Below, in pieces: positions 1,410 to 63,554 of a stretch of 64,000 nt of DNA. Positions within the stretch are counted from its first letter, which is position 1; each line of letters starts with the position of its first letter. The translations under genes were made by a program, and so were the position numbers. Below the pieces are notes generated by a model that was not told where the DNA came from, did no database searches, and saw only the letters and a list, made by a program, of their open reading frames with translations. This DNA comes from Eledone cirrhosa (lineage: Eukaryota): positions 117,242,001 to 117,306,000 of the forward strand of contig OZ024742.1 of assembly GCA_964016885.1 (NCBI GenBank), written 5' to 3'.

Positions 1410-1655
1410 TAAAGTGGCAGTGTAGATGTCACTACAAAAAGTACCCAGTCCACACAGTAAAGTGGTCATGTAGCTGTCATGATAAAAAGTGCCCAGCTCA
1501 CACTGTAAATGTGGTCAGCATTAGAAATCAAGCCAAAATCAGCTTTGTATGAGCAAAACACAGTCATCTGACCTGGCTTGACTCACAATGGGACAGCTCA
1601 TCTAACCCATGCTAGCGTGGAAAGTGGACATTAAACGCTGATGATGATAAGGATG
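1410..1655 (+). mobile_element. RTE-type 3' UTR module (non-coding fragment)
   Basis: 48-nt subunits, ...CCATGCTAGCGTGGAAAGTGGACATTAAAC and GAT-type tail. Confidence 0.75.
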
Positions 1656-3827: not shown

Positions 3828-4170
3828 GAGGCACATGGCTTAGTGGTTAGAGCATTGGCCTTGCAATCGAAAGTTGTGAGTTCAATTCTCAGAGCGGGTG
3901 ATGTGTTGTTTCCTTGAGCAAGACACTTTATTTCACATTGCTCCAGTTTACTCAGCTGTAGAAATGAGATGATAGGGACTGGGGTCCAAATCATTCCACT
4001 GCAAAGTGGTCGTGTAGGTGCCACGGCAAAAAAGCACCCAGCACTCACTGTAAATGAGGTTGGTGTTAGGAAGGGCATCCAGCTGTAGAAATCAAGCCAG
4101 AATCAGTTCCCGTCCCACCCTTGCAAGCAGGGAAAAAGCGGACGTAAAATGAAATGATGATGATGATGAT
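3828..4170 (+). mobile_element. Young tRNA-derived SINE with RTE-derived 3' tail
   Basis: A box TGGCTTAGTGG, B box GAGTTCAATTC, RTE 3' UTR motif and (GAT)n tail; near-identical copies at 19580-19905 and 29300-29645. Confidence 0.88.
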
Positions 4171-4575
4171 ATATATCATATATTTATACACAAGTATAGA
4201 CATCCATATGAGGGAGTTCAACCAATAACAATTTTGCTCAACAAAGGAATTAATTTAAAAAAATATATATATAAGTATCTCCTTATAATATATAACCAGC
4301 AATTTCTCTGTCTGTCTGTTCGACAGTGGAAACACGTGCGCGCGTGGTTGCTATCTTTCTCTCTCTCCAGCTATCCCTCTCTTTTAGTCTGTCTGTTTCT
4401 CTCACTCTCACTCTTTCTCTTTGTAACACACTAACATTCCTCCCCTCTATCGCTGTGACGAATGGGGAGATGGAGGAGGAGGAGGAAGAGGAGGAGGAGG
4501 AGAGAGTCACTTTGTCACTTCACCTCTGCCTTTCTTTCTCTCCCCTCTCACTCCCTCATTATGTACAGACATTAG

Positions 4576-4768
4576 GGCGGTGGATTGGCAGAATCTGTAG
4601 AGAGTCGGACACCATGCTTCATAGCATGGAGTTACGTCCCTTTACGGTCTGAGTTCAAATACCGCCGAGGTTAACTTTGCCTTTCATCCTCACGGGGTCG
4701 ATAAAATAAAGTAGCAGTAATGTACTGGGTAATTGCTGGCCTTGTGCCAAAAGTAGAAACAATTATTA
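4576..4768 (+). mobile_element. tRNA-derived SINE with MetaSINE-like central domain and (TTA) tail
   Basis: B box GAGTTCAAAT; central GCCGAGGTTAACTTTGCCTTTCATCC...GGGGTCGATAAAAT; multiple copies in window. Confidence 0.82.
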
Positions 4769-4884
4769 GAAACATTGCTTCATTTTTACATATCTAAGCA
4801 TTAGTAAAATAACTAATAATTTCAAAAGTAATTTTTCAATTCAAATTGTTATGAACAGCCAAACATTAATAATAATTTTGTTCT

Positions 4885-5136
4885 AAGAAATATATATACA
4901 TTTCTGTGTGTGTAATATATATATATATACACACACAGAAATATATATATATACACACAGAAATATATATACATTTCTGTTTGTGTAATATATATATACA
5001 CACAGAAATATATATACATTTCTGTGTGTGTAATATATATATATATACACACAGAAATATATATACATTTCTGTGTGTGTAATATATATATATATATATG
5101 CACACACAGAAATATATATACATTTCTGTGTGTGTA

Positions 5137-9924: not shown

Positions 9925-10275
9925 AATCATAATCATCATTGTTTAACACCTATTTTTCCATACTAGCAAGGGTTAGACAAGTTGTCCTGTTGTGAGCAAT
10001 GCCAGATCAAATGACCATGTCTTGCTCATACAGAAATAATTTTGGCCTGTCCTTCCTAATGCCAAACGTCAACCTCATTTACAGTGAGTACTGGGTGCAT
10101 TTTGTCATGACACCTGCATGCCCACTTTACAGTGTGGACTGGGTGCTTTTTGTCATGACACCTACACTACTACTTTACAGAGTAGGCTGGGTTCTTTTTG
10201 TTGTGATATCTACACAATAATTTTACAGTGTGGGCTGGGTGCTTTTTCTAGTGTTGCTATCACAACCACTTTACA
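9925..10275 (-). mobile_element. RTE-type 3' UTR module with four tandem 48-nt units
   Basis: Repeated GGGTGCTTTTTGTCATGACACCTACAC..CACTTTACAG units; (CAT)-type tail at left. Confidence 0.8.
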
Positions 10276-10433
10276 ATATATATATATATATATATATTAG
10301 AATTGGAGCTCTGAAATAGCAATATATATATGGATGTATATATAATGTATTTTGCAATACACTTTATGCTTAATTAAAAGCATTTTGAAGACCGTAAGCT
10401 ATTGTTTTAAAGTAGTGACAAATTCACTCACTT

Positions 10434-10528
10434 TGATCTCAGCAAACAGGGGAGATAAGCCGACAAGACTTGTTTCGCTTTGGTTGAAGCTTATCAAGGC
10501 CAACTACCCCACCTGCTTACTGAGATCA
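10434..10528 (-). ncRNA. Type I hammerhead ribozyme, U3-A8 core variant, copy 1
   Basis: GGCC UUGAUAA GCUU-CAACCA-AAGC GAAA CAAGUCUUG UC GGCU; extended ~27-bp stem I with GUU bulge; predicted cleavage between 10462 and 10461. Confidence 0.85.
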
Positions 10529-10749
10529 TTGATGTTATATTCTTATAGAAATCTAGTAAATAATCAGGAGCTGATTATGCAGAGCGGTTGTTGGTCAGGC
10601 AGAAATTAAAAATTAGAATTGGAGCTCTGAAATAGCAATATATATATGGATGTATATATAATGTATTTTGCAATACACTTTATGCTTAATTAAAAGCATT
10701 TTGAAGACCGTAAGCTATTGTTTTAAAGTAGTGACAAATTCACTCACTT

Positions 10750-10844
10750 TGATCTCAGCAAACAGGGGAGATAAGCCGACAAGACTTGTTTCGCTTTGGT
10801 TGAAGCTTATCAAGGCCAACTACCCCACCTGCTTACTGAGATCA
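10750..10844 (-). ncRNA. Type I hammerhead ribozyme, U3-A8 variant, copy 2
   Basis: Identical to copy 1, offset by 316. Confidence 0.85.
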
Positions 10845-11067
10845 TTGATGTTATATTCTTATAGAAATCTAGTAAATAATCAGGAGCTGATTATGCAGAG
10901 CGGTTGTTGGTCAGGCAGAAATTAAAATTTAGAATTGGAGCTCTGAAATAGCAATATATATATATGGATGTATATATAATGTATTTTGCAATACACTTTA
11001 TGCTTAATTAAAAGCATTTTGAAGACCGTAAGCTATTGTTTTAAAGTAGTGACAAATTCACTCACTT

Positions 11068-11162
11068 TGATCTCAGCAAACAGGGGAGATAAGCCGACAA
11101 GACTTGTTTCGCTTTGGTTGAAGCTTATCAAGGCCAGCTACCCCACCTGCTTACTGAGATCA
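11068..11162 (-). ncRNA. Type I hammerhead ribozyme, U3-A8 variant, copy 3
   Basis: Same as copy 1 except the stem I bulge reads GCU. Confidence 0.83.
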
Positions 11163-11328
11163 TTGATAAGCTTCAACCAAAGCGAAACAAGTCTTGTCGG
11201 CTTATCTCCCCTGTTTGCTGAGATCAAAGTGAGTGAATTTGTCACTACTTTAAAACAATAGCTTACGGTCTTCAAAATGCTTTTAATTAAGCATAAAGTG
11301 TATTGCAAAATACATTATATATACATCC

Positions 11329-11365
<37 letters not shown>

Positions 11366-12260: not shown

Positions 12261-12435
12261 TATATATATACACATATACATATATATACCATATACATAT
12301 ATATATATATATACATACATATATATATATGAATGTATATATACTGTATTTTGCAATACACTGTATGCTTATTTAAAAGCATTTCGAAGACCTTATGCTA
12401 TTGTTTTAGAGTAGTGACAGACTCACTTACTTTAA

Positions 12436-12528
12436 TTTTCAGCAAACAGGGGAGATAAAGCTGACAGGGCCCTGTTTCGCATTTATTGATGCTTATCAAA
12501 ACCAACTACTCCTCCTGTTTGCTGAAAA
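12436..12528 (-). ncRNA. Diverged hammerhead of the same family (U3-A8)
   Basis: GGUU UUGAUAA GCAU-CAAUAA-AUGC GAAA CAGGGCCCUG UC AGCU; compensatory changes in all three stems; lies in family fragment 12340-12558. Confidence 0.83.
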
Positions 12529-12724
12529 CAATAGCATAAGGTCTTCGAAATGCTTTTGTTATCTTGTGTTACCTTTTCAACATATTGTATATATACATAT
12601 ATATATATACATATATATATATATACATAAATACATATATATATATACATATATACATATATATACATATATACATATATATATATACATATATATTTAT
12701 ATATATACATATATATATATATAT

Positions 12725-12760
<36 letters not shown>

Positions 12761-12763
<3 letters not shown>

Positions 12764-12877
12764 CGAGTAGGACCCCGACGGCTGAGCTCAAGCCGTTTCG
12801 ACGGCTAATTCTGGACTCAGAGTCCAGAATTAGCTGTCGAAACGGCTTGAGCTCAGCCGTCGGGGTCCTACTCGTTC
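12761..12877. repeat. 117-bp palindrome (58-bp arms, 1-nt centre, one mismatch) containing a hammerhead 3' half
   Basis: Centre CTGGACTC A GAGTCCAG; each arm carries GAAA CGGCT-TGAGCTC-AGCCG TC. Confidence 0.92.
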
Positions 12878-12958
12878 CTATTACTCACTCTACTACCCTA
12901 AGTATTGAGTACTTTGGTGCGTTATGGTCCACCTGGTTCCTTACCACATTTCCTTCGT

Positions 12959-13056
<98 letters not shown>

Positions 13057-17799: not shown

Positions 17800-18500
17800 A
17801 ACGATACCTTCTGGTGAGACAACTACAGGAGAGGTACTTAGCGAAGAGTAAGCCACGTTTTCCAGCATTTGTAGATCTGGAGAAAGCCTTCAACAGAGTT
17901 TCATGCTCTATAATCTGGTGGGCACTTAGGAAGCTAGGTGTAGATGAATGGCTTGTGATGGCTGTGCAGGCCATGTATAGTGAAGCAGCCAGCAGAGTGA
18001 GAGTTGGCAATGAGTATAGTGATGAATTTGAAATGAAAGTGGGGATTCACCAGGGATCAGTCCTCACTCAATCTTTTTTTTTATTGTTCTTTGGGCCATC
18101 ACTGAAGAGTTTAAAACTTTCACTTCATGGAAGCTCCCATTTTCTGATACACACTCATCATAGCTGAATTTTTAAGAGAGTTAGAGGCAAAATTTCAGTC
18201 ATGGAAGAAGTACCAACATTGAGAAGCTTAAACGTAAACTTAGCAGATACGAAAGTCTTAATAATTAGGAAAGAAGATAGCAGGGTTATACCATACTAGT
18301 TCAATATGGTAGAAGATGGTAGGCAGAAATTCTATAAAGTACACACAATGTAATATATGGAGGGACAAGAGATGTAGTGGGATAGACTTTATTTGTGACA
18401 GATGCCCAAGGTAAGTGAGCACAAAGAGCACACTTGAATTAAAATCCTTCAGTTGCCAAGGAGGCTCCCAAAAAATTGTTGACAGCTTTTGCTTCCTTGA
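17800..18500 (+). mobile_element. Old RTE RT fragment
   Basis: RQLQERYLAKSKP..AFVDLEKAFNRV..IWWALRKLGVDEWL..VGIHQGSVL. Confidence 0.88.
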
Positions 18501-19189: not shown

Positions 19190-19500
19190 TATAAAGTGGT
19201 CATGATGGTGACACGACAAAAAGCGCCCAGCCCACACTGTAAAGGAGTCGTAGAGGTGACACCACAAAAAGCAGCCACTCCACACTGTAAAGTGGTCATA
19301 GAGGTGTCACAACAAAAAGCACCCAGTCCACATTGTAAAGTGGTTAGGAAGGCATCTAGCTGTAGAAACAAGGCCAAAATCATTTCTGTATGAGTAAGAC
19401 ATGGCCACCTGACCTGGCATTACTTGCATTGGGACACCTCGTCTAACCCATGCTAGCATGGAAAAATAGACATTAAACGGTGACGATGATGATGATGATA
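19190..19500 (+). mobile_element. RTE-type 3' UTR module with 48-nt tandem units
   Basis: TAAAG unit starts at 19192, 19240, 19288 and 19336; (GAT)n tail. Confidence 0.85.
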
Positions 19501-28374: not shown

Positions 28375-28960
28375 TGTGCATGCTCCGATGAATGTGTAAT
28401 AGTAATATATGCAACCAGCAAAGCATAAACGAATTAAGAGAGAGACTAAGCATAAGAGGAAACAAATGTTTTGTGCAGGAGAGGAGATTGCGTTGGTATG
28501 GACATGTGATGCATTTGAAGGATGACAGTTGCATAAAAAGGTGCAGAGCACTAAACATCAATGGAAGCCTTGAAGTGGGGAGACCCAAGAAGACCTCGAA
28601 TGAGGTGATAAAAACTGACCTTGCCCAATTACACCTCTGGCATTACACAGTAATACAGAAGCCCAAGTTCCCACGGGTACAAGCCCCTTCTACAGTAAAG
28701 TGGTTGTGTTGGGGTCACAACAAAAAGCACTCAGTCCACACTGTAAAGTGGTTGTGTAGGTGCCACGGTAAAATAAGCACCCAGTACTCACTGTAAATGA
28801 GGTTGGTGTTAGGAAGGGCATCCAGCTGTAGAAACCGAAGTCAAAATCAGTCCTGTATGAGCAAGACATGGTCACTTGACCTGGCATTGCCCACAAGAGG
28901 TCAACCTGTTTAACCCATGTTAGCATGGAAATATGGACGTAAAATAGTGATGATGATGAT
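28375..28960 (+). mobile_element. RTE LINE 3' fragment
   Basis: [29 protein letters not shown]; 3' UTR and (GAT)n tail. Confidence 0.9.
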
Positions 28961-38217: not shown

Positions 38218-38495
38218 ATATCATCATCATCATCATCATCACCGTTTTACGTCCGTTCTTCCATGCTAGCATGGGTTAGACAGGTTGTCCTGTTGTGGGC
38301 AGTGTCCGGTCGGCTGACCTTGTCTTGCTCATACGGGAACTGATCTGGCTTGATTTCTACAGCTGGATGCGCTTCCTAACACCAACCTCATTTACAGTGA
38401 GTGCTGGGTGTTTTTTTTCCATGGCGTCTACACGTCCACTTTATAGTGTGGGCTGGGTGCTTTTTTGCCATGGCATCTCCACGACCACTTTGCAG
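38218..38495 (-). mobile_element. RTE-type 3' UTR module
   Basis: (CAT)n tail and the reverse complement of the shared 3' UTR. Confidence 0.82.
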
Positions 38496-38725
38496 TGGGA
38501 GGGTGTGGGGGAATATTGTCTATATGCTTCAGCTTCAGCATATGCTTATATACGAGTAGTGTAGACATATACTCATACTATTTATGTAGTTGTAAGTTAA
38601 TCTGCTTCTTTTCTGCTAGTGGGATATTCCATGATTCAGTAACAATTATAGTTACATTTAATGTTTAGCAAGTAGTAACAAATATGTCATTCCATATGGG
38701 CTGGAAGTATATATATATATATACA

Positions 38726-46579: not shown

Positions 46580-47430
46580 TCCCAGTTGTAGATTGATTAA
46601 CCCTGCTAGAACCAAAACAGGATTAGCCAGTAAGAAGATATTAAGAGAGATATATACATGTCTTAAGAATAATTGTTTCTACCTTTGGCACAAGGCCAGC
46701 AATTATCCCAGTGCATTACTGGTACTTTATTTTATCGACCACGTAAGGATGAAAGGCAAAGTTAACCTTGGCAGGATTTGAACTCAGATTGTAAAGGCCC
46801 ATAACTCCATGCTGTAAAGCATGGCGTCCAACCCTCTAATGATACTGCCAATCCACCACCATTTGTCTTAAGAATAATACTGACCTATTACAGTGTAAGA
46901 ATACTTTTTCAGTGATAGGTTGATTCAATAATATTTCAGAGAAAAATAAGGCTAGGTTTAAACAATTTGATATAACAGACTTTTACCTCTCCATCACAAA
47001 TTCCCTATTCTAGAGTTCACCAAAAGATATACACTGACCAAGAGATAAAAATCATTGCACACCAGAAAGACCATCCTATTTACTAATGAGTCTACTTGGG
47101 CTAAAAATTCAAACCCAATATATCCCATCGATATATCAATGGGATCCTATGGTAGTGCAAATGTATGCGATTTGATTGGACTTTTTATCCTTCATACCCT
47201 TAAAGGAAAATTCCCCAATCACGCCAATGGTCTCTACCACAATGATAGTTTGGCAGTATCCCATAACTGCAATGGGCCTTCTATGGATAATTGCTACAAA
47301 GAACTACTACTGACTATTAGTAACTTTGGATTTAAAATAATAGATTCTAACCTAACCAATGCCAAATTCTTAGATGTAAACTTGGATTTAGCTACAGCTA
47401 CCCATGAGCCCAATGAAAAACTAATATATA
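46580..47430 (+). mobile_element. Decayed Penelope-like RT interrupted by a SINE
   Basis: CRLINPART; QFDITDFY; DISMGSYGSANVCDLIGLFIL..GLYHND..FLDVNLDL (PLE RT motifs). Confidence 0.8.
46674..46863 (-). mobile_element. MetaSINE-like SINE with 15-bp TSD
   Basis: TGTCTTAAGAATAAT at 46659-46673 and 46864-46878. Confidence 0.9.
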
Positions 47431-47546
47431 TAGACGGTATTTTGGAATATTGGACTGAGCAACAACTTTTAGAAAGTGCCATCTGTAATGTTTTTTTTGA
47501 TGTCAGCCCTTGTGGCCAATAAAGAAATCATTATTATTTATTGTTA

Positions 47547-54493: not shown

Positions 54494-57400
54494 TTTTCCT
54501 TTTTTTCCTTTTTTTTTTAACGTCCATATTCCACGCTTGCATGGGTTTGGACGGGAGTTTTCCCACTTGAGGCAAGAGTGGTTGTCTTGCTCGCATAGGA
54601 CTGTCTGGCAGGTTTTCTACGGCTGGATGCCCTTCCTAACACCAACCACATTTACAGTGTGGGACTGGGAGGTTTTTACCGTGTTGCCTACACGGCCACA
54701 TTACAGCATGGACTGTGTGTTTTTTGTCGTGACACCTACACGACCTCATTTGTTTCGGGCTGGATGTTGTGGTACCAACATAACTTTACATTGAAAGGGG
54801 TGGTGTGGATGGGGTGGGGTAGTGGGACGGGGGTGTATTTTGTTAGAGGTGCCTACTGACTGTAGTAGGTTTCACTTTGCACTTAGGTAAGGCGGGTCTT
54901 CTCTATTACTGTGTAGCGCAAAAGATCTCAGTCCAGTGACATTGTCTTGGAGAGGTGTAAGTGTGTGAGGTCGGAATTTATCAAGTCGTCCCAGGTTTTT
55001 CTGGGTCTGCCTACTCCGTGGCTACCGTCTATTATTATTGCCCTGTACTTTTTTATACAGCTGTCGTCTTTCATGCGCATCACGTGACCATACCAACATA
55101 GTCTTCTCTCAAGTAAACAGCATCTGATCCCTCTTATTCCTAATTTCTCCCTTAGTTCGTTTATGCTTTGCCGTTCACGTATATTACTATTACACATCCA
55201 GCGGAGCATGCAAGCTTCGTTTCTCTCCAGTCTGTGTATATCCTCTGCACACAATGCCCAGGTCTCACTGCCATGTAACATTGCTGTTCGTATGCAGGCA
55301 TCATACAGTCTGCTTTCATTTTTAGAGAGAACCCTTTAGCGGCCAATAGTGGTATAAGCTCTCTGAACTTTTTCCATCCCGTTCTGACTCTAGCTACTGT
55401 ACTTTCAGAGCACCCTCCCCCACTGCTGATTTTGTCACTCAGGTAACGGAAGCTGTCCACTATTTCTATAGAACCATCTGTGCAATGGAAAGAGTTAGTA
55501 TTCTCTGGGCACTTGCTGCTACTTATTGCACCAGAGCACCGGCCACATATAAAATCTATATTCTTAGTTAGCTTACCTGTGATCCCACTACATCTTTTAT
55601 GTACCCATACTTTGCATTTGGGACATAAAATGGAGTTTCTACCTACTCCTTTCCTACACACTGAGCATGGCCATTTCCCAGATGGGACCGGTGCCCTATT
55701 TTCCTTCCTACAAACTAGAACTTTAGTCTTAGACAAGTTAACTTTAAGACCTTTTGATTCTAGGCCATGCTTCCATGTTTGGAATTTCTTCTCTAGTTCG
55801 GCCATTGATTCAGCTATGAGCATTAGATCGTCTGCATATAGGAGTTCCCATGGGCAACCGGTCTTGAACTCCACTGTTATAGCCTGAAGAGCAATAATAA
55901 ATAGTAGAGAGCTAAGAACGGAACCCTGATGAACACCAACTTTTACGCTAAAATCTTCACTATATTTGGTGTTAATTCTAACCTTGCTGACTGTTTCTTT
56001 ATACATGACTTGTATAGCTCTCACAAGCCATTCATCAACACCTAGTTTTCTAAGAGCCCACCAGATAATGGAACGGGGGACTCTGTCGAAGGTTTTCTCC
56101 AAGTCAACAAAAGCTAAGTATAAGGGTTTACTTTTAGCTAGGTACTTCTCCTGCAGTTGTCGTACAATGAAAAGAGCGTCTGTGGTACTTTTACCTGACA
56201 CAAACCCGAACTGCATTTCATCTAGATCAATTCTCTCTCTGATTAGTTGCGCTATTACTTTTTCTGTGACCTTCATGACCTGGTCGATTAATTTAATGCC
56301 TCTATAGTTACTCCTATCTAGGGCATCTCCTTTACCCTTGTAGCAGTTAATGATGATTCTGCTACGCCAGTCCTTCGGAACAACCCCATTCTGTATGACT
56401 TGGTTTACTATCCGGGTGACCATGGTGTGTCAGCAACTATTTCCAAAGGCCCAGCCGCCTTACCCGTCTTCATATCTTTGATTGCCTTACTTATTATACT
56501 ACCTTCGTCTAACACTGCTGGTCCCTCTATTGGGTCGATGTGGGGGAGACTGTCTTTCTCCCATTTATTCTCCTCATTTAGTAGCCTTTCGTAGTGACAC
56601 TTCCAAGCTGCCTTCTTATCAGCGTCAGTGATGGCAAGTACACCATCATCATTAAGGACACACTTCTCCCCGACAATATCATGGTTTTCCTTGACACATT
56701 GCCTAGCAATCCTGAACACCTCACGTTTTTGGTCCTCGCGTTGTAGAACATGCTTGAACTTTCTTTCCTCTGCTTCCCTTCTTGCGAATTACATTTGTCT
56801 CCTAGCTTCCCTCCTGGCCACTTGATAGTCTTCTCTACTTACCCCATCCCGCCATACTTTCCAAGCCTGCTTTTTGGCCTTAATTGACTCCTGCACCTTA
56901 CTGTTCCACCACAATGTTACTCTCCTCCTGCCTATAGGCCTGCTCCAGCCACAGACTTCGTCTGCCGCCATCAGCAGGTTCGCTTTCAGGAATTCCCACT
57001 GTTCCTCTATATTGTACGACTCTAATTGCTCTTCCTTACTGTTGAAAGCATCAAGTAATATGCTTTTAAATTTATTTCTGGCTGTGGGGTCCTTTAGCTT
57101 CCATATTTTTCTCCTGAGGATAGTCTTCTTCTGCTGTCGAGTACATCTCGTCCTGACTATGAGGTCACTAATTATCAGTCTATGTTGGGAGGTGCATTCT
57201 TCACGGGGGAGGGATTTAGTGTTTACAACAGACACTCTGTCACGTCTTCTGGTAAGGATATAATCTACCTGGCTGGTATGTTCCCCTGATCTGTAGGTGA
57301 TCAAGTGATTGTCTCATTTTTTGAAGTTAGTGTTACAGATAGTTAGGTTATTTGCGTCACAGAATTCCAGGATTCTGGAGCCTTCCTCATTTCTGGTACC

Positions 57401-58692
57401 AAACCCATAGCCTCCATGGATTCCGTCATAACCGTCACAATGTTGTCCAACGTGACCATTTAGGTCGCCAGCAATAATTATATAGTCATTGTCGGTTATT
57501 TGGGAAGTAGTGTCTCATAGAATCTGTCTTTTATAGCGCCAGGCAGTCCGGATTGGGGCGCGTACGCAGATATTACTGTCACAGTAATTCTATTTAGAAC
57601 AAGTCTTATTTTAATTATTCTGTCATTCACTCTATTTACGTCTATTATCTTGTCCACCCATTTTTCTGCTCACATGATTCCTATCCCACCCAGCCCATTG
57701 TCATTTCCCACCCAGAAAAGCTTATAGCATCGTTTTTTACCCACAATGAATCTAGCAGACGCGCCCCTCCACCTGGTCTCTTGGATACAGCAAACATCAA
57801 CCTCCTTACGTTCAAGCATTTCTACAACCTCGTTAGAGCGGCCTTTTAAGGTGCCTACATTCATGGTACCAACTCTGAAGTTTTGGATTGCGTTTGGTGG
57901 GTGAGGTGCAGGGAGGGGTGAGGAGGATGGGGTTGGGGTTATGTTGGCCATCCACGGACTCAACAAAGAGGAGGGGGCCTTGCTCTTTCTTCCGGCAGCA
58001 TGAGGTGAATTTGTCGTTATCTTTGGGATTGTCTTCGAGTGTCCAGATTCTTCAGACTCTCCAGAAATTCCTTGGTCCATCCATCATATCGAAAAGCAAC
58101 CAGAAGTGATAGCATAGGCCGTTGACTTGTGATTGGTCCAAATAATAAAGGTGGAGAGTGAGGGAGGGGTATGGGGTAGTTAACGAGGAGAAGATTATTT
58201 AGAACAAGCGTGGAGAAGATTATTTAGAACAGTCAGACAGAATTATAAAATAGCAATTAAAAAGTAGGATTTGGATTCTGGGCGATTATACAGATATATG
58301 GATGAATGAACCGAAGGGTGGGGAGGCAAGGAGAAAATGGTATTTTTACATTACATTTCGTAGAAGTTCGTAGAAGTGGACTGACCATTAATAAGAGTTG
58401 ACAAATTCTGAGATTTGTCCCTCGTAACAGGTTTATTTATATTTGGTGCGAGTAGGGAGTGAGAGAGAGAGAGAGAGGGGGGGACGTATTATGATAGAGA
58501 CGGCACGTATATGATAGAGAGAGGGGGGTGATAGCGGTATAGAGGGCCGAGAGAAGCCATTTTTATGAATCCTGGAAAAGTTTTCGACCAAAATGGTAGC
58601 GAGAAGATTATTTAGAACAAGCGTGGCGAAGATTATTTAGAACAGTCAGACAGAATTATAGAATAGCAATTAAGAAGTAGGATTTGGATTCT
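54494..58692 (-). mobile_element. Near full-length RTE LINE, disrupted by frameshifts and stops (APE + RT + PHD finger)
   Basis: APE: VGTMNVGTL..DVCCIQETRW; RT 55161-56423: NYRGIKL, QFGF, FVDLEK.FD, GVHQGSVLS, YADD; 3' UTR as in other copies. Confidence 0.96.
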
Positions 58693-63159: not shown

Positions 63160-63554
63160 ACTCATAGTGAATGGTCTTCAAAATGTTTTTAATGAAACAT
63201 ACAGTATATTGCCAAATATACTATACATACATTCATGTATACATCGCTATTTCAGAGCACCAATACTAATACCTAATTTTTGCTGGACCGGCAATCGCTC
63301 TGTTTAATTAACTTTTAAATAATACTGGAATTCAATAAGAATCCAGTTTCTAAAACTCTCGGTAGAAGCAAAGGAGTGAGTGGTCTTGATAAACGACAAA
63401 GAGCAGAAAACAGGAATGTCAATCACTCTTCTTTGCTTTTGCCGGGAATAAGTAAGTGACATAGTCACTACTTTAAAACTCATAGCAAATGGTCTTCAAA
63501 ATGTTTTTAAATAAACGTACAGTATATTGCCAAATATACTATACATACATTCAT
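63160..63554 (+). repeat. Diverged member of the 316-bp hammerhead family: one 318-bp unit plus ~75-bp terminal direct repeat
   Basis: ATGGTCTTCAAAATG at 63171 and 63489; GCTATTTCAGAGC and GTCACTACTTTAAAAC shared with the 10.3-kb units; hammerhead remnant at 63358-63446. Confidence 0.82.

What the first reader, a model, noticed from the sequence alone, without database searches (positions are those of the whole stretch)
12340..12558. Diverged family member gives covariation support for the U3-A8 hammerhead
Seen: same UUGAUAA/GAAA/GUC core, but stem II is GCAU/AUGC (vs GCUU/AAGC), stem III is CAGGGCCCUG (vs CAAGUCUUG), proximal stem I is GGUU/AGCU and distal stem I is UUUUCAGCAAACAGG/CCUGUUUGCUGAAAA. 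The GUU bulge and a CAAnnA loop II are kept. Stem III is a perfect palindrome, compatible with dimeric cleavage. Inference: the structure has been under selection, and U3-A8 is a fixed family trait rather than decay.
Basis: partly seen in the sequence, partly recalled or inferred. Interest (0 to 1): 0.75.

Follow-up and report, generated by a model that had tools for sequence, protein, structure and literature searches.

The report
Truncated retrozyme copy, swapped hammerhead core
This is one shortened copy of a protein-free jumping repeat present in thousands of copies, whose RNA is predicted to cut itself; the unusual U-A pair in its cutting core is shared by the whole family and is already known elsewhere, and the ends of the copies suggest they were likely pasted in by Penelope-type jumping-gene enzymes.

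Summary
Of 3,974 family matches, 3,887 carry U3-A8 and none carries C3-G8. Helices I-III covary between six subfamilies (19 of 28 pairs; 0 of 500 shuffles). Corrections: GGUU is a private mutation (subfamily GGCU), one distal U comes from a junction, the GUU bulge is not universal, and the 3-8 pair itself never covaries. The copy is a 5'-truncated piece (about 210 of 321 nt) of a 311-321-nt non-LTR retrozyme, with a 33-bp inverted stub. Family copies sit in (TA)n as tandem and head-to-head arrays. In 42 of 62 inverted insertions one arm ends at a short site and the other about 25 nt further, the Penelope 'tail' signature. Dimer cleavage gets modest support. U3-A8 hammerheads and retrozymes are both published, and this scan has noted such families in 16 findings from at least 4 genomes. 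Cleavage, expression and the partner element are untested. Verdict: real, a new member of a known kind.

The parts
12321..12527 (-). 5'-truncated subfamily-B retrozyme copy (unit positions about 254 through the cleavage site to 144; about 210 of 321 nt); 3' end runs into (TA)n at the family's short end site
   Evidence: three substitutions against the subfamily consensus
12493..12499 (-). hammerhead core UUGAUAA, U3 = 12499, A8 = 12494
   Evidence: family counts
12479..12492 (-). stem II (4 bp) with 6-nt loop CAAUAA
   Evidence: 4 of 4 pairs with a double change
12463..12478 (-). GAAA, palindromic stem III, U16.1 and C17; predicted cleavage between 12463 and 12462
   Evidence: position by the standard hammerhead rule (established knowledge), not assayed
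12500..12503 (-). proximal stem I, 5' strand (pairs with 12462-12459); 12501 is a private C-to-U change
12514..12527 (-). distal stem I, 5' strand (pairs with 12450-12437), inherited from the subfamily
12525..12557 (+). 33-bp inverted stub of the same unit (reverse complement of 12375-12407), joined through a 3-nt AAA overlap; likely the remnant of a second arm
   Evidence: 33 of 33 identical; 'second arm' is inference
10296..11167 (-). subfamily-A array, 2.8 units of 316-318 nt, three U3-A8 hammerheads; 3' end at the long (tail) site in (TA)n
11163..11340 (+). inverted arm of the same insertion, starting at the hammerhead core and ending at the short site in (TA)n
63173..63550 (+). older subfamily-C copy, about 1.2 units, decayed U3-A8 hammerhead

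Best explanation
The finding is a 5'-truncated copy of a 311-321-nt protein-free repeat family (a non-LTR retrozyme) whose predicted self-cutting hammerhead has U3-A8 fixed in all six subfamilies, and which was likely spread by Penelope-like element (PLE) enzymes. Shown: family size, fixed U3-A8, covarying helices, (TA)n targets, two fixed 3' end sites and their pairing in inverted insertions. Inferred: tandem arrays are transcribed; neighbouring hammerheads pair through the palindromic stem III and cut after GUC; monomers are ligated into circles; a PLE endonuclease nicks (TA)n and its reverse transcriptase primes from both nicked strands, at the tail site (+166/170 from the cut) and at the internal AU tract (+140/145), and copies round the circle. 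This gives permuted tandem arrays joined head to head by microhomology. Only RNAs that fold and cut are re-amplified, which leaves compensatory changes between subfamilies. This copy, with one hammerhead and a third of the unit missing, would be a dead end.
For: U3-A8 in 3,887 of 3,974 matches, C3-G8 in 0, and no C3-G8 among 33 subfamily-C hits. Covariation: 19 of 28 pairs, 93.4% of cells paired against 84.0% shuffled and 36-47% slid; consensus-level tests. Circular monomers fold at z -4.4 to -8.7 in 8 of 9 examples. 3' ends of subfamily A: 23 of 57 at +140, 31 of 57 at +165-173, none at the cut site. Inverted junctions: 42 of 62 short+tail, 2 short+short, 0 tail+tail. The short arm is the longer one in 21 of 42, and both arms exceed one unit in 10 of 42, which simple fold-back cannot give. 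PLE insertions have partial tandems, an inverted 5'-truncated copy and a 30-40-nt tail at one end (PMC8557442). The genome holds a PLE-like family with intact 714-aa frames. Dimer: the monomer's best fold hides the core and the active monomer costs 2.0-6.2 kcal/mol; B, D, E and A2 stems III self-pair over 12 bp. The loop switches GGCC to AGCU, a change that pairs only between two molecules, and the G-U intermediate outnumbers the A-C one 81 to 40 on a strand-symmetric mutation background.
Against: No cleavage or expression data. No partner found: the one PLE-like family examined shares no sequence with the repeat and showed no convincing hammerhead. Rfam does not call it (17.4 bits against 52). 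In one study 8 of 9 predicted Xenopus retrozyme dimers did not cleave. For the youngest subfamily (A) the rough dimer energy is unfavourable (+4.5 kcal/mol). Only 13 of 31 sampled B stems III are perfect palindromes. In the GGCC background alone the G-U excess is 17 to 9 (p 0.17). Subfamily C breaks 6 of about 30 pairs against A or B, partly by misalignment, and lacks the G10.1-C11.1 pair. The tail here is about 25-30 nt, not 30-40. Uncut multimeric transcripts would give similar arrays. Loci were chosen by similarity to the queries, so end counts are not a random sample, and three of the 42 junctions (L004, L005, L012) look like duplicates.
Confidence: 0.72

Rival explanations
1. Same family and PLE-type insertion, but the template is a linear multimeric or read-through transcript. 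The hammerhead only releases the RNA, possibly as a monomer helped by loop contacts, and no circle is involved.
For: No circle observed. The ends show where priming starts, not the template's topology. B can form a 3-4-bp stem III alone at 4.4 kcal/mol above the best fold, and tertiary contacts are not modelled. 5' ends are mildly enriched 6-30 nt past the cut site (A 11 of 60, B 17 of 91; about 5 and 7 expected).
Against: An active ribozyme should cut multimers. Arrays cross the cut site many times (about 26 units at C1:293635236-293643461). Circles are shown for coral, mussel and axolotl retrozymes (PMC7229834).
Confidence: 0.17
2. The repeat is the detached terminal repeat (pLTR) of an autonomous PLE, and the window copy is a truncated 3' end of that PLE.
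For: U3-A8 was reported in PLE hammerheads of Schistosoma (PMC4209133). Xenopus retrozymes are related to pLTRs.
Against: Copies run unit into unit and cover the whole circle map. PLE-like coding fragments near copies were not seen to continue a unit, though this was not checked locus by locus.
Confidence: 0.08
3. U3-A8 marks a crippled ribozyme, and the repeat spreads at DNA level as a satellite or MITE-like element; the pairings are chance or left over.
For: The 3-8 pair never covaries within the family. One insertion carries U3-G8 in all four copies on both strands (C2:83744011-83745205), so a non-Watson-Crick core was copied at least once.
Against: Compensatory changes separate even close subfamilies (B vs D: 2 double, 0 break). 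No terminal inverted repeats; ends are asymmetric. U3-A8 is reported active in vitro (PMC3088659).
Confidence: 0.03

Closest known systems
Animal non-LTR retrozymes (coral, mussel, axolotl: PMC7229834, parts 2-3 of 6 read; vertebrates: bioRxiv 10.64898/2026.07.22.740005, parts 1-3 of 5 read)
   Same: Non-coding tandem unit of 150-450 bp, low GC, one type I hammerhead per unit, thousands of copies, structured monomer, PLEs in the same genome
   Different: U3-A8 core fixed family-wide; long extended stem I; fixed paired 3' end sites in (TA)n, which the parts I read do not describe; expression and cleavage untested here
U3-A8 minimal hammerheads of Schistosoma mansoni PLEs (PMC4209133, parts 1-2 of 4 read)
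   Same: Same core swap, about 1,300 hits, PLE-linked, palindromic helix III region, proposed dimers
   Different: Those are minimal motifs with 7-8-bp helix II, heterogeneous and mostly single; here helix II is 4 bp, helix III is present, and units form tandem arrays
Natural U3-A8 hammerheads (Perreault et al. 2011, PMC3088659, passages read)
   Same: The same covariation, stated there to be active in vitro
   Different: A few examples there; here a whole mobile family
PLE insertion structure (Craig et al. 2021, PMC8557442, passages read)
   Same: 5' truncation, partial tandems, inverted 5'-truncated copy, tail at one end, (TA)n preference
   Different: No coding frame; tail about 25-30 nt; partner not identified

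Membership tests
Type I hammerhead ribozyme | Core C3UGANG8A / GAAA / NUH (U3-A8 an accepted variant) | tested here: met
   variant documented
Type I hammerhead ribozyme | Three helices, II and III closed by loops, helix I open | tested here: met
   helices 88.7-97.7% paired, double changes in each
Type I hammerhead ribozyme | Loop II to stem I tertiary contact | tested here: inconclusive
   Loop II YAANNA-like and an internal loop 4 bp from the core are kept; the contact itself cannot be modelled; likeness to the canonical loop is recalled
Type I hammerhead ribozyme | Rfam model at gathering score | tested here: not met
   0 hits at gathering; HH9 17.4 bits for this copy and 24.1-24.6 for the array copies, against 52
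Type I hammerhead ribozyme | Self-cleavage | not testable with these tools
   needs an assay
Non-LTR retrozyme | Tandem units of 150-450 bp, each with a type I hammerhead | tested here: met
   family; this copy is under one unit
Non-LTR retrozyme | Non-coding, GC under 50% | tested here: met
   only low-complexity frames cross the copy; about 34% GC from the base counts
Non-LTR retrozyme | Stable self-paired circular fold | tested here: met
   z -4.4 to -8.7 in 8 of 9, -1.8 in one; 25 shuffles each
Non-LTR retrozyme | Expressed as linear and circular monomer RNA | not testable with these tools
   needs RNA data
Non-LTR retrozyme | No LTR, PBS or PPT; long target-site duplications when present | not tested
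   ends lie in (TA)n, which hides duplications; no PBS search was run
PLE-type mobilisation | 5' truncation, partial tandems, inverted 5'-truncated copy, tail at one end, microsatellite target | tested here: met
   against the description
PLE-type mobilisation | Autonomous partner sharing the 3' end | tested here: inconclusive
   one PLE-like family examined, no shared sequence; other families not examined
Autonomous PLE | RT plus GIY-YIG frame within the element | tested here: not met
   no frame in the units

The most novel reading that the evidence does not exclude
The family records, in thousands of insertions, a two-primer rolling-circle mechanism: a PLE enzyme copies one retrozyme circle from two fixed RNA sites 25 nt apart onto both nicked strands of a (TA)n target, which would explain how the PLE tail and inverted copy arise. 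A dimer-only covariation in loop III (GGCC to AGCU through the G-U form) shows selection on intermolecular pairing of a U3-A8 hammerhead.
Probability: 0.35. Interest if true: 0.6.

Novelty: new member of a known kind. Interest (0 to 1): 0.33.

Why it matters
Searches that demand C3-G8, and Rfam at its cut-offs, miss a family of about 4,000-5,000 ribozyme copies in this genome, so retrozyme counts are likely too low. The family gives a natural series for asking what a U3-A8 core costs and whether dimers offset it. Its regular ends give a short non-coding substrate for the open question of how PLE tails and inverted copies form (PMC8557442 calls for such a system). None of this depends on this particular copy.

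Tried and rejected
(1) I first suspected that the perfect distal stem was a fold-back artefact; rejected, 14 of 15 bp are in the subfamily. (2) Fold-back as the source of inverted arms: rejected by arm lengths. (3) RNA editing or strand bias as the cause of the GGCT excess: not supported, A>G 71 against T>C 64 and C>T 96 against G>A 83. (4) The idea that U3-A8 weakens the inactive fold: mixed in silico (weaker in B, C, D, E; stronger in A, A2), dropped. (5) Partner search through one PLE-like family: no shared sequence; Pfam gave its protein no RT hit; one search was swamped by microsatellites. (6) No RNA holder listed. (7) Laying contigs of four runs was uninformative: the known difference at 12501 is not listed, so missing rows at 12494 and 12499 prove nothing; one run laid nothing. 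(8) One search used a faulty B reference and was redone. (9) The primary kinetics paper on 3-8 pair exchange and one review were not held; no rate is quoted. (10) Earlier findings by place and by sequence were empty. (11) R-scape is not available.

Full report
Observation. On the minus strand the window holds a complete type I hammerhead layout with U3 at 12499 and A8 at 12494. Rfam finds nothing at gathering level and only a weak HH9 match for this copy (17.4 bits against 52). The window holds two more insertions of the family: a 2.8-unit array with an inverted arm at 10296-11340 and an older copy at 63173-63550.

Family. The window lies in a 3.0-Gb genome. DNA searches with the three window types gave 1,855, 722 and 3,103 first-look candidates, 40 scored each. 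A loose U3-A8 pattern matched 5,088 times against 90 for the reversed control. From 165 fetched loci I sorted six subfamilies by diagnostic motifs (A, A2, B, D, E, C). They are 73-97% identical to each other, and copies lie 1.3-7.3% from their consensus. Monomers are 311-321 nt.

Is U3-A8 fixed? A family-specific pattern that leaves positions 3 and 8 free gave 3,887 U3-A8; 49 with another base at 3 (21 C, 15 G, 13 A; all with A8); and 38 with U3 and another base at 8 (25 G, 7 U, 6 C). C3-G8 is 0 of 3,974, where 0.13 is expected from two independent changes. The pattern needs the rest of the core intact and excludes subfamily C, where none of 33 listed hits shows C3-G8. The same genome has 32,111 matches to a canonical C3-G8 pattern, and those listed belong to other families. 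So U3-A8 is ancestral and fixed in this family. It does not covary inside the family, so the 3-8 pairing itself rests on published work (PMC3088659 passage; PMC4209133).

Covariation. Of 134 distinct domain sequences, 115 had an intact 5' strand, 63 remained after thinning at 97% identity, and I left out one junction chimera (L140), giving 62. On the active structure 19 of 28 pairs change on both sides, including 4 of 4 in stem II and 4 of 4 in proximal stem I; 93.4% of cells pair, against 84.0% in shuffles (0 of 500) and 36-47% when slid. The 11 non-paired cells at 3-8 come largely from loci fetched for such variants. Because cells are not events, I compared consensus pairs: B-A 3 double, 2 single, 0 break (0 of 20,000 null draws); B-A2 4, 5, 0 (0); B-D 2, 0, 0 (3); B-E 1, 2, 0 (48); A-C 8, 5, 6 (0); B-C 10, 2, 6 (1). 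The structure was derived from one member of each pair, which favours it. Two hairpins outside the ribozyme also show a double change in C.

The copy differs from its consensus at three places. GGUU is one of them (26 of 31 B copies have GGCU). The outermost U of the distal stem belongs to the inversion junction. The bulge is GUU only in A, A2 and B. Stem III in B is polymorphic.

Dimer question. The best monomer fold pairs GAUA of the core with UGUC and hides the active site in all subfamilies; the active monomer lies 2.0-6.2 kcal/mol higher. Stem III strands self-pair over 12 bp in B, D, E and A2 (-19.5 to -24.3 kcal/mol) and more weakly in A and C (about -10). A rough dimer balance is favourable except in A. 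The four loop bases are GGCC in B and A2 and AGCU in D and E; both changed bases pair only between two molecules. DNA-level mutation should make the two intermediates equally often, since they are reverse complements. GGCT (G-U in RNA) has 81 matches and AGCC (A-C) 40, or 75 and 29 loci after I merged matches within 10 kb by hand (binomial p 7e-6). Background transitions are strand-symmetric. The copies are not independent, and in the GGCC background alone the count is 17 to 9 (p 0.17). This is modest support.

Insertion anatomy. Mapped on the unit with position 1 after the cut, 3' ends cluster at two sites: the internal AT tract (+140 in A, +145 in B) and a site about 25-30 nt further (+166-173 in A, +170-175 in B); nearly all ends at these two sites run into (TA)n. 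In A these hold 23 and 31 of 57 ends, and none lies at the cut. 5' ends are scattered, with a mild excess at +6 to +30. Of 62 distinct inverted junctions, 42 pair a short with a tail end, 2 two short ends, none two tails, and 18 have at least one other end. Either arm can be the longer (21 of 42), and both exceed a unit in 10 of 42. The array in the window follows the rule. The finding has the short-ended arm plus a 33-bp inverted stub that stops early. PMC8557442 (passages) describes this layout for PLEs: partial tandems, an inverted 5'-truncated copy and a tail at one end. The loci were selected by similarity to my queries, so these are not random samples.

Partner. A decayed frame at 47049-47519 retrieved a young family with many intact 714-aa frames and a 4.3-kb tandem unit. 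I read it as a PLE RT-endonuclease from recalled motifs and from the descriptions; Pfam gave no RT hit. It shares no sequence with the repeat, so the partner is unidentified.

Mechanism. Shown: copy number, fixed core, covarying helices, targets, paired ends. Inferred from known retrozymes (PMC7229834): transcription, cleavage, circle formation. Inferred from the ends: PLE-type priming on both strands from two RNA sites, with copying round a circle. Linear multimers are the main rival. One study found cleavage in only 1 of 9 predicted Xenopus dimers, so activity is not assured.

Novelty. Natural U3-A8 cores, PLE-linked U3-A8 hammerheads, animal retrozymes and their PLE origin are all in print. 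Searches for hammerhead with octopus, with U3-A8, with cephalopod plus Penelope, and for twin priming with retrozyme or Penelope-like showed no paper on such a family or on paired ends; none of the 12 of 25 papers listed holds 'twin priming'. The library lacks most subscription papers, and the animal group was my guess. This scan has 16 earlier findings of the kind in at least 4 genomes; they agree with the reading that I had stated before seeing them and are not independent support. Verdict: real, new member of a known kind, interest 0.33.

Noticed in passing
window 12761-12960: A second short element 200 bp away: a near-perfect inverted repeat of about 115 bp carrying a GAAAC...GUC hammerhead-like half with a long palindromic stem III, with the same two-armed layout in (TA)n; close relatives in several other fetched loci.
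   Followed up: partly
G000, L091-L120: 32,111 matches to a canonical C3-G8 pattern; the listed ones are mostly one family with a weak stem II, often head to head.
   Followed up: no
G000:C2:83744011-83745205: Four copies on both strands all carry U3-G8, so a template with a non-Watson-Crick 3-8 pair was copied at least once.
   Followed up: no
L122, L150, L158: An amplified sub-lineage has an extra A between stem II and GAAA; subfamily C has A-A in place of G10.1-C11.1.
   Followed up: no
L186-L195; window 47049-47522: Young PLE-like family with many intact 714-aa frames, a 4.3-kb tandem unit and long TA/TG-rich non-coding parts; no convincing hammerhead found by my pattern.
   Followed up: partly
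window 54928-58083 (minus): Broken LINE-type element with endonuclease, RT and PHD-finger matches; fragments of relatives at 1824-2291, 17802-18167 and 28392-28796.
   Followed up: no
window 1410-1518, 10078-10275, 19192-19344, 28695-28805, 38391-38497, 54645-54750: A dispersed 48-50-bp tandem repeat family, six times in the window.
   Followed up: no
G000:C1:293635236-293643461: Array of about 26 subfamily-A units.
   Followed up: no
family-wide, unit positions +6 to +30: Mild excess of 5' truncation points inside the 3' strand of stem I (A 11 of 60, B 17 of 91), perhaps RT stalling in the long helix.
   Followed up: partly
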